From the NCBI GenBank assembly GCA_051294375.1, contig CM119270.1:16557693-16621304 (forward strand): 63,612 nt of DNA, written 5' to 3'. The stretch's first letter is position 1, and every line of letters starts with the position of its first letter. Below the pieces are notes generated by a model that ran no database searches, had not been told where the DNA came from, and was given only the letters and a program-made list of their open reading frames with translations. The DNA is from Paraspadella gotoi (Eukaryota > Animalia > Chaetognatha). Shown here one piece after another: positions 5,151 through 53,050 of the stretch. A program made the position numbers and the translations under genes.

Positions 5151-5328
5151 TAACAATTAGCTAATTATAATTTCATTCAATAGAAATTAAAAAAAGATGA
5201 GAAAAAGAGTGCAAAAAAATTTTTTTAATAATGTTCAAGTAAAAGTAAACTTTTGTTTCCATTAAAACTTCCGACTTTCACTTGCATACTTTTCTTCCAC
5301 ACACAAAATTTTTTCTTAATTCATTTAT

Positions 5329-5756
5329 GAATTGGTACAACCAATTATAAAAATTATCCATTCATTTAATTAAATAAAGCTTATCTTTGACCCCTGACTT
5401 TGGACAGGCTTTGGTCGCGTTTAAGGCCTCCATCAACTCTTTACAAAGATAATTGACATTAGCAGGTCCCTGCAAGCCTTCAAACAGACTCTCTCACAAG
5501 TCCGTTTATTCACTCCAGAGTACCTGGCTTCCCTATCAATTGAAGTGGAAAATATTTTCAAAAGAATGTTTCAATTGTATGAAAAAGACCACTCCCTTAA
5601 GTATTAGATCGGGAAATACTTATTGTACTCCGCACTAGCATCAAAATACAAGGAGGCTAAATTTTATTGAAATTGGTACAACCAATATAAAATTATCCAT
5701 TCATTTAATAAATAAGCTATCTTGCCCCTACTTTTTGGACAGGCTTTGGTGGTTTA
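5329..5756 (-). mobile_element. Twister-containing short retroelement, 1.25-mer (period about 341 nt)
   Basis: ttggtacaacc recurs at 5332 and 5673. Flanked by tttatgaa (5324-5331 and 5753-5760). Absent from the matching position of the second hAT-like copy. Homologous to 10098-10302, 52428-52730 and 55258-55549. Confidence 0.8.
5382..5451 (-). ncRNA. Putative P5-type twister ribozyme (indel-noisy copy)
   Basis: Minus strand reads GAUGG AGGCCU UAA ... AC CAAAG CCUG UCCAAAGU CAGG, enclosed by an AUCUU(U)G/CAA(A)GAU stem. Confidence 0.6.
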
Positions 5757-7737
5757 TGAAATTTTAAATAATTAGGAATAAGGAGTAGGGATGGTTTTAA
5801 TTTTTTAATTAAACTTATAAAAAATTAATTAAATAAAAAATATTAATTGATAATTAATTATATCAGTTTTTAAGTTCTGCTCCCATATTAGCATAAACTC
5901 CAATTTATTCGTGATTAAATAAATGGATTGATAAAAATTTTATGTGTGGGTAGAAAAGTATCAAGCTTGTGGGGAAAATTTGGGAGCTAGATATAAAGTT
6001 TTTGCTCACTCTCTCTCTCAAATCGTCAGCCTCTACTTAACAACGTGAGTTCATTCTTAAGCAATCTTACAAACTTATGATTATTAATTACCAAATCTTA
6101 TATTAAAAAAAATGTTGATTGTTACGATGTTAGAACTCATTTAATGTTGCATGAATAGTTTTTATCTGTTTTTTTGGGGGGACTCCATAACTGCATTTAA
6201 GGGAGGTCTGTCAGTGTCAACTGCTATTATTTGTTTGGTGATTTATTTAATTTCTTTTTAAAAATCAAAATTATGAATATTTTTCTTAAAAAATTATGTC
6301 TCTCTCTATCATGTCAGTCTCATCAAGTATATCATCCAAACAAAAAAGAAAGAAAAAAAAAGAAAAAAAAAAAGAAAAAAGATAAAAAAATAAAACAATG
6401 ACTGATTAGCTTTTTACCATAAATTTTCCTTGTGCTACCTCCTTACATTGTTTGTTAAAACTTGTTTCTATATCTTTTAACTTGAAATAAAATAATTGCG
6501 CGTATAAAAAATACAAATATTTATAATTTTTAGATAAAATAATGGAATAAATTGAGTTAACAATAATTTGAAAAATGTATTTATTTAATTCAGTTACATA
6601 AAACAAGTCTTGAAGAGAGAGAAAAAAAGAGAGAGAGAAAAAAAGAAAGAGAATGAGAAAAAGAAGAGAGAAAAAAAAGAGAGAGAGAAAAACAAAAGAG
6701 AAAGAGAAGAGAGAGTAACAGACAGGAAAAAATATTTTCAGATATGATAAATAATCAAAAAGTATATTTTCTCATCTAAACTTTGCTCTCTCTTTAAACT
6801 CGCCCCTGGGGGAGCATTTTTTGCTCCCCAAGGGGTTACCCCCAGGGGCAGACTTTTTTTGCCCATGCGGGGCTAAGCATTTAGGGGCGCCCTAAGTAGA
6901 CCCAAATGTTGCGCGCCCCATGGGGGAACCCCCCTGGGCGGCCCCCCTGAGGCAATCAGAGGGGCGCCCCTCAATGACCATTTTGCTGCTCCCCCTGAAC
7001 AGTCTGCCCCCTGGGGCCGCCCTAGAGCCGCCCCGTGGGGCGGAGGATTTTTGGGAGATGACATATCTTCAAAGTTGAAATGAAATGAAGTGAGTGAATG
7101 AGTACAAACCGGTGTCGGGGTTGGGGTGGGGTTGGAAATCAGATTGTAATGATGTTTTTTTTAATAGTGGAAAGTTCTAAATCTTTTAAATCTCGAGTCA
7201 TGCGTTATTTTTTTTTAAATAATATTCAAATAATGAATTTCCTATGCCATTTCGGAAATAATTAATTGGTAAGGATCATCCGCTCAAAGCCGTGAAAGCT
7301 CAAGTGATTCTGTGGAACGATCGAAAATCGACAAAATTTGATCCTTGAGGAACAAAAACAATTTGACAACGTGGCGAAGAAAAGCGTGACGAGCGTTACA
7401 GAGTTTGACAAGCGTGACGTTATAGTGAAGAGAAAGGGACCGAATAATTTCTTAAAAAGCAATTTGAAATAAATACGTTCGCCGAAGAATTAGATTAGGT
7501 TAAGTTAATATTGATCTTGTTAATATTGGTAATTTGGTAGAACATAAAAAAAAATTCAGTATTTTTGTAGTCATAATGTAAAACTGCCGATAAATTTTAT
7601 CTGTAAATTGATTTATTAAATCGGCGGACATAAGCTAAGCAAGGAATTTAAGAAAATAAATAAAAATGGTGGGCTTTTTTTAAAATAAACGCTACACCGA
7701 AAAATAGAAGGAAGCTTTTACCACCAATTACCAGCCA

Positions 7738-9723: not shown

Positions 9724-10097
9724 TTCCCCAAGAAGATTTCCTTTCTCCAATTCCAGTAGCGCCTCCCCTTCGCCGCATGAGGTATCGAAATCCTTAATCC
9801 CTTCTCTTCTTCTTCCTCTTCTTCCTCCTCCTCTTCCTCCTCCTCCTCCCCTCCCCGCATGTGGCATTGAAAATGCAAAACCCGTCGATAATATTTATAA
9901 ACCAGCGGGAACCTTCATACCTTCTCTCGTTGGTGGGTTTAAATTCCGGCGAATCATTTTTCAAAAGCTGATTCGGTTTTACTTTAAAATTGAAATTCTT
10001 TAAAAAAGGGCAAGGAACGAAATCGAAATTGTTAAACTATTACCGAAAAAAACTTTTTACTCTACTCCATATCCTATTATATCTAGCTATTAAATCG

Positions 10098-10302
10098 TAT
10101 ACCACTTCATGGATAGGGAAGCCAGGTGCTCTGGGAGTGAATAAACGAGACTGTGAGAGAGTCTTGGTTGAAAGCTTGCAGGGACCTGCTATGTCATTTT
10201 CTCGTAAGAGTGATGGTGGCCTGAAACCACCCAAGCCTGTCCAAGATAACTTAGCCTTACTTATTAAATGAATTGATAATTTGGTTGAACCAATTTCATA
10301 AA
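10098..10302 (+). mobile_element. 5'-truncated copy of the twister-containing repeat; ribozyme broken by a ~12-nt deletion in L4/P4
   Basis: Reverse complement of the 52.4-kb copy. Reads gagtgatggtggcctgaaaccacccaagcctgtccaa|gata and ends ccaatttcataa. Confidence 0.8.
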
Positions 10303-10712
10303 ACAATTTCGAAAAACATAAATAATTCATTTTTCTTTTACGGTTTTCTACGAAGGTAACAAAAAAAATACCACAAGCTTATCTCAAGGTACANNNNNNN
10401 NNNNNNNNNNNNNNTAAGTTACGCGGAAGTAGGATTTTTTTTTGCTAAAAGGTTGGATGATTTTGATTAAAAATATCATCTTGATTTTTTCGTTAAAAAT
10501 GGCTGAAAAAAAATAATATGGAAGAAGATTGTATTTAATTACGCGGACGTGTTACGTATTACATAAAATTCGATTGCAAGTAACTCATTCTTTCATGTTT
10601 ACAACTAGAATCAACGATTCCCTGTTTCATTTTCCCCTCAACAAAAAAAAAATAAAACCCAATTTTCCCCACGAAACCAAAGAGGGCGCGAGCGTTCGCG
10701 AAGTTCGTGCGT

Positions 10713-29599: not shown

Positions 29600-31442
29600 G
29601 TCTTTCTTTCTTTCTTTCTGTCTTTCTTTCTTTCTTTCTTTCTCCCTTTTTTTCTTTCTTTCTCTAGTTTCACTGTCGCTTTTTTATTTTCATTTTATTT
29701 TATTATCTTCTATATAGTTTTTTTATTTTCTTAATTTCTAGTTCCCTCATAAAAATTCAAGTCTTTTTTATGTCATTCTCCCGTTTTTAATTGGATTCTC
29801 TCCTCGGATTCCCGACCAAAAAAAATCTTCACTAAATTTATCGTGGTTGTCCTTTTTTCTGATTTCGTGTTCTTCCCTTCTCACAACTTCCTTAATTGCT
29901 GGTTTTCCTTTTTTTTTCTCTTTTTTTTTTTCAAGAAAGCGGCAAATAAATTCGTAGAAATTAGATTCATTGGCAATTTCTTAGGGAGGCTTGTCTGTAC
30001 ATTCATTCGATTTGTTAATTGTATTTCATTAATTTGAAACTGTAGTAGGGCCCTAAATGTTTCTTTTTCGAGGATAAAAAACTCTCGATTTCTAGTTGCT
30101 TCAAAAAACGAGCGGACAAATCCGATGGTTGGCAATTTGCTATTGCGGATGCTCTTAATTATTTAAAATTAATCAAAATAAATGTTTAAATAACTGAAGA
30201 AAAAAATAAAAGTACACAAAAGTGATAAAAAAAACATGAAGTAACTCATGTTTTAAGTCAACTTTTATTATTTTAAGTTTTAAATTGTCAACTTTAATGT
30301 CTTTAATACTTTTCTGACTATTGCTATATGCAAATGTATTTAAGATTAAAACTCAGAAAAAAAATATCGAATAGAAGAAGAAAGTCGAGGAAGAAAACTA
30401 ACATACAATTTTTCTTATTTTATTCATGGTCTAACCCTGTCCCAGATTTAACCTTTAATAATACCTGGTTAAACTTTAGACTTTTACGGACTTATTAGTC
30501 GAGATTCTCATTGGCGCTTTCGTCGCCGCCGCCACCGCCGCCGCAGCCGCCGCAGCCGCCGCAGCCGCCGACTTCTCGACCTTGGTAAGTCTCTCTCCAA
30601 CGCCGCCGGAGAAAGACGATCGCCCATGACTCACCCGCCGATTTTACGGTGAGGTTCTTGACGCGGCGACACAAAAGTGGGAAGAAAGAAATGAGGAAAT
30701 TCGATTTTTAATGACCTCAACTTTTTTCTCTCTCTCGAGGGGTTGAGAAGGGGTCGAGAGGGAGTCGAAGGGTGTCTTAGAGGGGCGCGGAAGGGGGAGG
30801 TAATCATTCACGACGGGTGATTCTTTGATTAGACTGATTTTTAGGTAAGGACGAGTCGATCATCGAACGCGGCTCGGGTAAGTCAAGATCAGAAATGAGG
30901 AATTTAGTTTTGAAGTTGAGGAAGGAAGATAATTCTGGATTTTGACGTGGTTTACAATACGTATATTACAATACAATACAATACTATACAAGTCCCGGTG
31001 ATATCTCCTGCATTTACAAACATAAGAATAAAAGAAGATTGATTGATCTTTTAGTTTTTCCTTTTAGTTCAAATTTTGAAAAAAAAAACTTTCAACCATA
31101 GCCTATGGCATAGAGAGAGATGATTGATATGTTTTATCAACGGAATTTCCAATCGATTGCCATCTCAGTCTAAAATATGGAACGAGAATTAAGAGAATTT
31201 AAATGGTTATTTATGTTTATTTTGTTTGTTTACCTTTAGAGCAACCAATATGATATAATTACAAACATTTATTTGCTTAAAAGCAACCAAACGACGTTGC
31301 CACCTCAGAGATCAGATATGGAAAAAGTTAAAAATAAATAAATAAACCAAAAAAACGACGATGAAAAGAAAATGTTTTCGGTACAAGATGATTATCTCGG
31401 GAAAGCGCGACTTTATCGAAACCGATCTCTCTCTCCGGCGAG

Positions 31443-36145
<4,703 letters not shown>

Positions 36146-38429: not shown

Positions 38430-41800
<3,371 letters not shown>

Positions 41801-50903: not shown

Positions 50904-51986
50904 NNNNNNNNNNNNNNNNNNNNNNNNNNNNNNNNNNNNNNNNNNNNNNNNNNNNNNNNNNNNNNNNNNNNNNNNNNNNNNNNNNNNNNNNNNNNNNNNN
51001 NNNNNNNNNNNNNNNNNNNNNNNNNNNNNNNNNNNNNNNNNNNNNNNNNNNNNNNNNNNNNNNNNNNNNNNNNNNNNNNNNNNNNNNNNNNNNNNNNNNN
51101 NNNNNNNNNNNNNNNNNNNNNNNNNNNNNNNNNNNNNNNNNNNNNNNNNAGAGAGAGAGAGAGAGTAAAAGGCGAAGCGAGGATGGGAAAAGTGACGCAC
51201 GGAAGAACATCAACGGTGAAAATCCGGCGAAAGGAGGGAACACACTGGGTTTTAGTCTCGACACACCGGGTCTTAACCGGGGTTAGGATTTTTGGTTGGA
51301 TCTTGGCGTATTGGGATATTTCTTGAAAAGGCAGAATATCTATTGCAGTCTCGTTTATTAAATGAATTGATTATCTTTTCATTGGTCATACTAGTTTTAT
51401 TGCCAGTTCAAAATGAATTTATAAAAAAATTTAAATTGGTTTTACTAAGCAAGCAAGATATTGAACGATTAATTTTCATATTTTATATATTTCTATTTCA
51501 TATATAATTCATGTAAACCCGACGACGCCACCGACAACGAAAGAGACAAAATGTAGAATGCAACGACAAATATAAGAACAACAACAACAACAACGAAGAG
51601 GTTCTTGATTTTTTTTTTTTNNNNNNNNNNNNNNNNNNNNNNNNNNNNNNNNNNNNNNNNNNNNNNNNNNNNNNNNNNNNNNNNNNNNNNNNNNNNNNNN
51701 NNNNNNNNNNNNNNNNNNNNNNNNNNNNNNNNNNNNNNNNNNNNNNNNNNNNNNNNNNNNNNNNNNNNNNNNNNNNNNNNNNNNNNNNNNNNNNNNNNNN
51801 NNNNNNNNNNNNNNNNNNNNNNNNNNNNNNNNNNNNNNNNNNNNNNNNNNNNNNNNNNNNNNNNNNNNNNNNNNNNNNNNNNNNNNNNNNNNNNNNNNNN
51901 NNNNNNNNNNNNNNNNNNNNNNNNNNNNNNNNNNNNNNNNNNNNNNNNNNNNNNNNNNNNNNNNNNNNNNNNNNNNNNNNAGAGAA

Positions 51987-52017
<31 letters not shown>

Positions 52018-52427
52018 ACACGAAAAGTGCTTTCCATCATTTTGTCGAGTGACGAAAAACTCAATCCTTAACTGCTGAGCGTTCAGTTCTGTTTTCATTC
52101 ATTTGATTTCTTAAAAATATTTTTAATCGATTCCCAAAATCTTATTTACATATTGTAGTATTTATTGGCGGCGAGGTGTTTTTTATTTAAAATATATTTT
52201 GCAAAAGTAGTAAACTAAAAATTTGAAGGATTTTTATAAGTTTACAAGTATTTAATTTTGTTCATGTTTCTTTTTTTTTTACTTTCGGGGATGACTCCGT
52301 TTATGACTAGCTCATGGATGGCGTGCGACGTGAATTACAACTTATAGCACAGTATTAATACGTCATTTTAGTCATTACGTGTCATTATGTAATTTTCGGT
52401 CATTATAGTCAATACGTTAATATGTCA

Positions 52428-52730
52428 TTATGAAATTGGTACAACCAATATAAAAATTATCCATTCATTTAATAAATAAGCTATCTTGCCCCTGACTTTG
52501 GACAGGCTTTGGTGGTGTAAGGCCTCCATCACTCTTACAAGATAATGACAAAGCAGATCCCTGCAAGCTTTCAATCAAGACTCTCTCACAGTCCCGTTTA
52601 TTCACTCCCAGAGTACCTGGCTTCCCTATCAATGAAGTGGTATAATGTTTCAAAGAATGTTTCAATAGTATGAAAAGACCACTATACAATATATACTATA
52701 TTGTATTCCGCACTAGCATCAAAATACAAG
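52428..52730 (-). mobile_element. Near-full copy of the twister-containing short retroelement
   Basis: High similarity to 5329-5652; shares the end ttatgaaattggtacaacc. Confidence 0.85.
52482..52544 (-). ncRNA. Putative P5-type twister ribozyme (cleanest copy; the A8 equivalent is C here)
   Basis: UAUCUUG UAAGAGU GAUGG AGGCCU UAC ACC AC CAAAG CCUG UCCAAAGU CAGG GG CAAGAUA; P5, P4, T1 (CCA/UGG) and T2 (AC/GU) all pair. Confidence 0.65.
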
Positions 52731-53050
52731 TGATTTTTGGTCATTTTAGTCATTACGTCATTATGTTTTTTATGTCAATTTATGTCATGTAATTTTTGAT
52801 CATTTCAGTTATTACGTCATTATGTCTTTTAAGTCATTTTATGTCATGTCATTTTGGGTCATTTTAGTGACTACGTCATTATGTCTTTTACGTCATTTTA
52901 TGTCATTATATCATTTTGGATTCTCTGTTTTAATTATTTTATTAAATAAAAAAAAATGATGGGCAATAGTGTCATCATGAGTGAATGTCACATGTCATCA
53001 TTGTCATCATGTGTCATAATTCGTCCTGTAATTTGACGTGGGAGGAAATG

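What the first reader, a model, noticed from the sequence alone, without database searches (positions are those of the whole stretch)
5324..5763. 1.25-mer insertion starting at the predicted twister cut site: a possible twister-based retrozyme
Seen: one full ~341-nt unit (5332-5672) plus a head-to-tail partial unit (5673-5756). On the ribozyme (minus) strand, homology to the family begins at 5753-5756, and the predicted scissile bond lies between 5756 and 5755 (U|AAACCACCAAAG). The insertion is bracketed by tttatgaa(a)tt. Established: partial tandem terminal repeats and ribozyme-defined RNA ends characterise Penelope-like pLTRs and animal non-LTR retrozymes (short monomers, often circular RNAs), which to my knowledge are described with hammerhead ribozymes. 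Inference: this is a non-coding retroelement whose RNA is processed by twister and copied by a reverse transcriptase supplied in trans.
Basis: partly seen in the sequence, partly recalled or inferred. Interest (0 to 1): 0.88.

Follow-up and report, generated by a model that had tools for sequence, protein, structure and literature searches.

The report
Twister-bearing retrozyme-like animal repeat
This is one copy of an abundant, roughly 330-base non-coding repeat in an animal genome that carries a predicted twister self-cutting RNA fold where known animal retrozymes carry a hammerhead, and it is likely copied by a Penelope-like retroelement, though cutting, RNA circles and the partner are untested.

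Summary
A ~339-nt unit (5325-5663; about 330 nt once read errors are removed) is followed head-to-tail by a 93-nt partial unit. On the minus strand the partial begins at 5753-5756, around a predicted twister cut (5756|5755). The family is high-copy, non-coding, with one fixed 3' end; its tandem junction is in contigs of 4 of 4 runs, so it is not a gap-filling invention. The fold is a type-P5 twister: Rfam 20.4 bits, below cut-off; strict core 0 of 3000 shuffles. It has a bulged P2 and, in place of P1, a loopless palindrome that likely needs a dimer. By eye, the same design sits near the 3' end of 6 of 53 published Naiad Penelope-like consensus ends, a clade reported to lack canonical hammerheads. 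Best reading: a non-autonomous, Penelope-mobilised retrozyme-like element using twister. Cleavage, circles and the partner are untested.

The parts
5325..5663 (-). Full monomer of the repeat (copy A), error-rich; about 330 nt in the family
   Evidence: reads
5664..5756 (-). Partial upstream unit: predicted cut site to fixed 3' end (91 nt in clean copy B)
5393..5444 (-). Type-P5 twister-like fold of the full unit: P2 3' strand, catalytic-position G 5434 and A 5433, T1 strand 5432-5430, palindrome 5429-5424, cut 5423|5422, T2 5415-5414, P4 5408-5405 with 5396-5393, L4 5404-5397
   Evidence: Rfam RF02684 20.4 bits, E 0.14; coordinates; descriptor
5424..5429 (-). Loopless palindrome AGGCCU in place of stem P1; predicted dimer helix
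   Evidence: sequence; duplex -9.1 kcal/mol; cofold
5755..5756 (-). Predicted scissile U|A of the partial unit; insertion's 5' breakpoint lies at 5753-5756
5653..5663 (-). Head-to-tail junction spacer, absent from copies B, C, D but present in read contigs
   Evidence: tables 7 and 8
5330..5346 (-). 7-bp terminal hairpin just inside the fixed 3' end; candidate RT start signal (inferred)
5753..5763 (+). 11-nt copy of the family terminus at the 5' junction (target duplication with homology, or template switch)
52428..52730 (-). Copy B: clean, nearly one unit, in a satellite; private A-to-C change two bases after the cut; cut 52519|52518
10092..10303 (+). Copy C: 5'-truncated, same 3' end, decayed P4
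55258..55549 (-). Copy D: 5'-truncated, same 3' end, twister partly deleted
35458..35563 (+). Copy F: old internal fragment
   Evidence: nhmmer E 1e-11

Best explanation
This is a non-coding, high-copy ~330-nt repeat with a fixed 3' end and a head-to-tail junction, likely a non-autonomous retrozyme-like element mobilised by a Penelope-like (probably Naiad-type) reverse transcriptase, that carries a predicted type-P5 twister in place of the usual hammerhead. Inferred cycle: tandem or read-through transcripts cover the unit on the minus strand. The twister's P1 is a loopless palindrome, so one copy would cut poorly while two copies would pair through it and cut, as dimeric type I hammerheads do. 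The RT would start inside the RNA at the hairpin 91 nt downstream of the cut, prime on AT-rich DNA, and mostly read through an uncut or religated twister, stopping at variable points. Copy A likely came from a longer-than-unit RNA whose 5' end was made by cleavage, giving 1.25 units. Shown: repeat anatomy, polarity, junction, core base-pairing pattern. Inferred: cleavage, dimer, circles, RT start, partner.
For: Fixed 3' end in 4 of 4 near-complete window copies with differing 5' ends and 70-87% AT flanks. Hundreds of contigs leave the family into unlike, AT-rich sequence at that end (259 at 5668 in X2, 71 in X5, 34 in X8). Eight listed contigs in 4 of 4 runs reach from <=5593 to >=5689 across the junction. 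Twister-P5 is the best Rfam hit, on the strand whose 3' end is fixed; E 0.14 over 4227 families, about 3e-5 per family by my arithmetic. A strict core descriptor is met by the unit and by 0 of 3000 shuffles, a middle one by 50 of 3000. Against the Schistosoma table, T1, T2 and P4 each differ by a pair-preserving double change. By eye, 6 of 53 displayed Naiad consensus 3' ends (Mgal, Bpla, Mphi, Scon, Mmer, Mley) hold a P5 twister-like fold with a loopless palindrome after the T1 strand. Mgal and Bpla have the same P4, loop end and T2 as here; Mgal, Bpla and Mphi have the same 3-against-4 bulged P2 with different paired letters. The one core position varying in >=5% of depth (52533, run X2) is the predicted bulge. 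In the anole Penelope element the RT starts internally in a stem-loop 85-92 nt past the hammerhead cut, on AT-rich DNA, mostly on uncut RNA (PMC11167929); here cut to end is 91 nt. No RT, endonuclease or transposase domain in 223 window ORFs.
Against: Rfam score is far below the gathering cut-off (20.4 vs 37.6), there is no gathering hit in the window, and copy B gives no twister hit at E<=10. P2 has only two contiguous pairs: a 3-pair descriptor fails on the real unit, and a loose descriptor matches 884 of 3000 shuffles. The nested part of the active fold scores +0.8 against an MFE of -8.2 kcal/mol, pseudoknots not modelled. No depth step at the cut. The breakpoint is 1 of 4 copies, and TTTA microhomology could place it there 1 time in 3-5. 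No array of two or more full units was seen. The Naiad link rests on fold design read by eye; flanking sequence shows no evident homology, the Naiad folds are longer between the T1 strand and the cut, and Naiad targets are often (TA)n, which these flanks are not. The anole distance is a single example.
Confidence: 0.6

Rival explanations
1. Same retroposon family, but the twister is an inactive relic. Copies come from uncut read-through RNA, and copy A's 5' end sits at the cut only because TTTA there matched the target.
For: Weak P2 and sub-threshold score. No depth step and 3 of 4 copies read through. Only 3 TTTA sites in copy B's unit. Cleavage was dispensable in vitro for the anole element, and 8 of 9 Xenopus retrozyme dimers did not cleave.
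Against: The core shows no variant >=5% over 52490-52532 in three runs (not significant alone, about 2 expected by my estimate). The bulged P2 and palindrome recur in Naiad ends with pair-preserving changes. 62 loose-end contigs lose family likeness near the cut.
Confidence: 0.2
2. Most copies are 5'-truncated terminal-repeat (pLTR) stubs of an autonomous twister-bearing Penelope-like element, and the 330-nt tandem unit is a minor deletion derivative with no RNA cycle of its own.
For: Depth declines towards the 5' side. One 1,920-nt contig of depth 257 in X8, where most listed contigs have depth 3-50, joins the family at 5515-5618 (record 27). Most Penelope insertions are 5'-truncated.
Against: Copies A, B and D span nearly the whole 330-nt unit with no coding remnant. 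The short junction is in all four runs.
Confidence: 0.1
3. The 1.25-unit layout at this locus is an assembly product: a join of two loci or a chimeric long read.
For: The region is error-rich, the window has many N gaps, and no listed contig bridges the unique flanks.
Against: The junction spacer is absent from copies B, C and D yet present in independent contigs. Extra bases extend into both flanks, as expected of one spanning read (inference).
Confidence: 0.05
4. A DNA rolling-circle or cut-and-paste element (Helitron/Helentron-like or MITE), or an RTE/Perere-3-type SINE, with an incidental twister.
For: Tandem junctions and terminal hairpins occur in rolling-circle elements (recalled). The read junction has a GC hairpin followed by CTGA on the + strand. 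Twisters are known at RTE 5' ends with the TSD next to the cut.
Against: No TIR, no TC start, and four different right-hand ends. No B box or credible tRNA head. The twister is P5 type and near the 3' end, not P1 type at the 5' end; there is no 3' microsatellite tail.
Confidence: 0.05

Closest known systems
Metazoan non-LTR retrozymes (Cervera and de la Pena 2020, PMC7229834; bioRxiv 10.64898/2026.07.22.740005)
   Same: Non-coding unit of 150-450 bp, GC below 45-50% (36% here), ribozyme inside the unit, head-to-tail junction, many dispersed monomers, proposed Penelope partner.
   Different: Defined by a type I hammerhead; none here. Neither paper reports a natural twister retrozyme. No multimer and no circular RNA shown here.
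Penelope-like element pLTRs with minimal or dimeric hammerheads (PMC4209133; anole element PMC11167929)
   Same: Partial tandem layout, palindromic minimal helix next to the cut, internal fixed end about 90 nt past the cut in a stem-loop, AT-rich targets, 5' truncation.
   Different: Twister not hammerhead; no ORF; no 30-40 nt tail or inverted copy demonstrated.
Naiad Penelope-like elements (Craig et al. 2021, PMC8557442)
   Same: By eye, 6 of 53 displayed consensus 3' ends carry a P5 twister-like fold with loopless palindrome; two share P4, loop end and T2 with this family.
   Different: Naiads are autonomous, 3.4-4.4 kb. Their folds have a longer segment before the cut, the five bivalve ones have a P3 stem, and three counted ones lie about 160-170 nt from the end. 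The paper's main text does not mention twister.
Perere-3 T-variant twisters of Schistosoma mansoni (Liu et al. 2021, PMC8501958)
   Same: Twister in a retroelement; insertion 5' end and target duplication next to the AA of the cut; poor P1 tolerated.
   Different: P1-type twister at the 5' end of an autonomous APE-RT element with GTAA tail; here P5 type near the 3' end of a non-coding tandem unit.
Twister ribozyme type P5 (Rfam RF02684)
   Same: U|AA, catalytic-position GA, T1, T2, P4 and L4 in P5 order.
   Different: No intramolecular P1, bulged P2, score 17 bits under the cut-off.

Membership tests
Twister ribozyme, type P5 | U|AA cut motif and G-A opposite it | tested here: met
   Read majority restores UAA at 52517-52519 in >99% of depth; coordinates
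Twister ribozyme, type P5 | Double pseudoknot T1 and T2 with loop L4, stem P4 | tested here: met
   T1 3 WC pairs, T2 2, P4 4; strict descriptor 0 of 3000 shuffles
Twister ribozyme, type P5 | Stem P2 of about 4 pairs | tested here: inconclusive
   Two contiguous pairs plus one past a bulge; 3-pair test fails; same bulge by eye in 3 Naiad ends
Twister ribozyme, type P5 | Intramolecular stem P1 | tested here: not met
   Loopless 6-nt palindrome; P1 is reported dispensable or weakly needed
Twister ribozyme, type P5 | Rfam gathering score | tested here: not met
   20.4 vs 37.6 on the error-rich copy; no hit on copy B
Twister ribozyme, type P5 | Self-cleavage | not testable with these tools
   bench assay needed
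Non-LTR retrozyme | Non-coding 150-450 bp unit, low GC | tested here: met
   about 330 nt, GC 0.36; no Pfam hit
Non-LTR retrozyme | Type I hammerhead in each unit | tested here: not met
   no CUGANGA..GAAA on either strand, one mismatch allowed; no Rfam hammerhead hit
Non-LTR retrozyme | Tandem copies (dimers to multimers) | tested here: inconclusive
   junction in 4 of 4 runs; no array of two full units seen
Non-LTR retrozyme | Linear and circular monomer RNAs | not testable with these tools
   only contigs available; none on record as RNA
Penelope-like element derivative | Partial tandem, fixed 3' end, 5' truncation, AT-rich targets | tested here: met
Penelope-like element derivative | Sequence shared with the end of an autonomous RT/GIY-YIG element of the host | not testable with these tools
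   no genome held; none in window; five exact motifs give no Naiad match in the Craig supplement
RTE/Perere-3 type | P1-type twister at the 5' end and short tandem 3' tail | tested here: not met
Helitron or MITE | TC..CTRR ends or terminal inverted repeats on both sides | tested here: not met
   four different right-hand ends, no TIR
tRNA-derived SINE | Pol III A and B boxes in a tRNA-like head | tested here: not met
   no B box on the minus strand of any copy

The most novel reading that the evidence does not exclude
A natural twister retrozyme: a ~330-nt non-autonomous satellite of twister-bearing Naiad Penelope-like elements whose palindromic P1 makes the ribozyme cut only as a dimer, so multimers are processed to monomers while monomeric circles stay intact. 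Twister and hammerhead would then be interchangeable parts, convergent on the same dimer switch and the same position upstream of the RT start.
Probability: 0.35. Interest if true: 0.8.

Novelty: new variant of a known kind. Interest (0 to 1): 0.62.

Why it matters
Animal retrozymes and Penelope terminal repeats are described with hammerheads, and the published genomic role for twister is the 5' end of RTE-type elements. A short tandem family with a P5 twister, sharing its design with Naiad 3' ends, would extend the retrozyme class to a second ribozyme and suggest what some Naiads lacking canonical hammerheads use instead. It gives a small construct for testing whether a twister can be dimer-gated and whether cleavage matters for Penelope-type mobilisation, which is still open. 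It also shows that such twisters fall below the Rfam cut-off and are likely under-counted.

Tried and rejected
No genome was held, so no genome-wide breakpoint census. Exact-motif scans: viral contigs 0 and 0; prokaryote genomes 0; metagenomes 9 loci, none sharing more than 22 nt with copy B, judged chance. No RNA holder listed; X8 is only guessed to be RNA and says nothing on expression. A first loose twister descriptor was unspecific (8 real hits, 1-7 per shuffle) and was dropped. A 48-codon open frame ending at the terminal TAA has no Pfam hit; its 3 library hits are tandem-repeat translations with summed weak scores, rejected. The X2 joint 5319-5790 is not an empty allele, since it drops flank bases. 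Relaxed ARAGORN gave 105 noise calls. The neighbouring Fez gene shows an animal host but no narrower taxon. Short loop motifs in the Craig supplement found nothing useful; reading record ends did. A literature search returned mostly unrelated papers. Searches of earlier scan findings by place and sequence were empty.

Full report
Setting. The window is microsatellite-rich animal DNA with 20 N gaps and a Fez-family zinc-finger gene at 38430-41800. No genome is held, so family-level evidence comes from window copies and from contigs of public runs with coded names.

The observation. The full unit (5325-5663) and the partial unit (5664-5756) are there. On the minus strand the partial starts at 5753-5756 and the predicted scissile bond is 5756|5755. 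The full unit is insertion-rich: 15 extra and 3 missing bases against copy B with 5 mismatches, and reads omit these bases, also in both flanks. I estimate the true monomer at about 330 nt. The bracket TTTATGAAATT is the family's own terminus, so only its right-hand copy (5753-5763) is informative. Its 7 bases past the twister have a local chance of about 4e-4, which points to a homologous target that was duplicated, or to a template switch back to the start.

The family. nhmmer gives 7 hits at 6 loci in the window. Copies A, B, C and D share the minus-strand 3' end and differ at the 5' end; flanks are 70-87% AT against 61% for the window. On 248 nt of copy B, 19,760, 3,277 and 1,062 contigs were laid from three runs of three studies; this shows abundance but is not a copy number. 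Hundreds of contigs leave the family at the fixed end into unlike sequence (259 in X2, 71 in X5, 34 in X8 at 5668). Eight listed contigs in 4 of 4 runs reach from 5593 or less to 5689 or more, and loose ends at 5655 and 5668 show the junction spacer; only the longest records are listed, and they extend 26-29 nt past the start of the second unit. The junction is therefore a family feature. No listed contig bridges the unique flanks of locus A, so this locus itself is unconfirmed. None of 223 ORFs scanned (222 filtered stop-to-stop frames of 55 aa or more, plus one 48-aa frame) has an RT, endonuclease or transposase domain.

The ribozyme. Rfam has no gathering hit in the window. At relaxed threshold the best hit near the finding is Twister-P5 at 5393-5437 minus, 20.4 bits against 37.6, E 0.14 over 4227 families; twister was the prior hypothesis, and per family that is about 3e-5 (my arithmetic). 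Copy B, with a private change in the UAA, gives no hit; reads show the UAA letter there in over 99% of depth. With five read-majority corrections applied in the script, the unit meets a strict descriptor (WC pairs: P4 4, T1 3, T2 2, P2 2) that 0 of 3000 shuffles meet. A middle version is met by 50 and a loose one by 884, and a version needing three contiguous P2 pairs fails on the real unit. The strict version was written after seeing the sequence. Against the Schistosoma table, T1, T2 and P4 each carry a pair-preserving double change. Two oddities remain: P2 has 3 bases against 4 with a bulge, and P1 is the loopless palindrome AGGCCU, which pairs well between two molecules (-9.1 kcal/mol). 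The nested part of the active monomer fold is unfavourable (+0.8 against -8.2; pseudoknots not modelled). Type I hammerheads have a 1-2 bp helix III with a palindromic loop and cut as dimers (PMC4209133); I infer the same switch here.

Link to Naiads. Earlier AI notes reported twister-like folds in Naiad repeats of other genomes. I checked this in the supplement of PMC8557442, whose text says Naiads lack canonical hammerheads and never mentions twister. Reading by eye the last 300-350 nt of 53 Naiad consensus records, six (Mgal, Bpla, Mphi, Scon, Mmer, Mley) hold a P5 twister-like fold with a loopless palindrome after the T1 strand. Mgal and Bpla have the same P4, loop end and T2 as this family; Mgal, Bpla and Mphi have the same bulged P2 with different paired letters and bulge bases. 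The only core position varying in 5% or more of depth here is that bulge (52533 in X2). The other 47 ends showed no such fold to me; this was not a computed search. Differences: a longer pre-cut segment, a P3 stem in the five bivalve folds, a greater distance to the end, and no evident homology outside the fold.

The 5' end. Chance alone puts a breakpoint in a 4-nt window about 1.2% of the time, about 5% for any of four copies. But if TTTA microhomology chose the site, there are only 3 such sites in copy B's unit and 5 in unit A. B, C and D read through the cut. Depth after/before the cut is 1.00, 1.09 and 0.84, with no step. The top loose-end places on that side are 52504, 52508 and 52650 in X2 and 52508 in X5; the 40 + 22 contigs at 52508 resemble the family to about 52519-52520 and then turn AT-rich, a weak hint biased by clipping and towards old copies. 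A family-wide peak is not shown.

Mechanism. In the anole Penelope element the RT starts inside the RNA, in a stem-loop 111-118 nt into the ORF with the hammerhead cut at 26, i.e. 85-92 nt apart, on AT-rich DNA and mostly on uncut RNA (PMC11167929). Here the fixed end is 91 nt past the cut, beside a 7-bp hairpin, and the unit continues past it at the junction. Animal retrozymes are proposed to be non-autonomous Penelope derivatives. I therefore favour a Penelope-mobilised, retrozyme-like element with a dimer-gated twister (0.6), over an inactive relic (0.2), pLTR stubs (0.1), a local assembly product (0.05) and other classes (0.05). It works like a non-LTR retrozyme but fails the hammerhead criterion, so I file it as a variant, not a member.

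Novelty. Searches pairing twister with retrozyme, retrotransposon, Penelope, tandem repeat/palindrome, RTE and SINE/dimeric, and Naiad with ribozyme, listed no paper describing a natural twister retrozyme or a twister in a Penelope repeat; I judged most by title and abstract start. In print are Perere-3 twisters, a note on truncated twisters at RTE 5' ends, and tandem ribozyme pairs including twister in totiviruses. The library lacks most subscription papers, including the original twister paper (recalled only), whose alignments might hold this family; bioRxiv supplements were closed.

What I saw of each paper. PMC7229834: passages and Discussion. PMC7761336, PMC5680766, PMC6765202, PMC6154101, PMC10085705, PMC13725137: passages. 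PMC8501958: abstract, sections 17, 19, 21 and part 1 of 18. bioRxiv 10.64898/2026.07.22.740005: parts 1-3 of 5 and a term search. PMC11167929: parts 1-2 of 4. PMC4209133: part 1 of 4. PMC8557442: passages and supplement excerpts. Helitron and SINE end rules and long-read error patterns are recalled.

Noticed in passing
run X8, table 8 record 27 (matches window 5515-5618): A 1,920-nt contig of depth 257 (most listed X8 contigs 3-50) joins the family on its 5' side with 1.8 kb of other sequence; candidate autonomous partner or another repeat.
   Followed up: no
PMC8557442 supplement, ends of Naiad_CGi, Sglo, Olur, Tgra, Pmar, Skow, Pfla, Chem-2 records: A second conserved, often palindrome-bearing fold, neither hammerhead nor twister by eye, recurs near these Naiad 3' ends; possibly another self-cleaving class.
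   Followed up: no
window 5318-5333: The left flank is a perfect 7-nt inverted copy of the element's terminus, 2 nt away; with the 11-nt repeat on the right, both junctions echo the terminus.
   Followed up: partly
window 52431-52574 minus: A 48-codon open frame runs through the twister and stops exactly at the terminal TAA of copy B; no Pfam hit, only repeat-protein noise in the library.
   Followed up: yes
window 51349-51400: A fragment shares the family's 3' terminal 50 nt (nhmmer E 0.003) but has different upstream sequence; perhaps a second family with the same end signal.
   Followed up: partly
window 52300-52920: Copy B sits in a 59-bp satellite; B and D stop 14 and about 35 nt short of one full unit, at either side of a GC hairpin loop near the junction.
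   Followed up: partly
window 38430-41800: Fez/earmuff-family C2H2 zinc-finger gene with several exons.
   Followed up: partly
window 31442-31583 and 35020-35161: A 142-nt, 99% inverted pair 3.4 kb apart, one arm beside a 25-N gap; young element or assembly product.
   Followed up: no
protein P0123: A leafhopper predicted protein made of a 56-residue tandem unit begins each unit like the frame through this twister; DNA not available, probably chance.
   Followed up: partly
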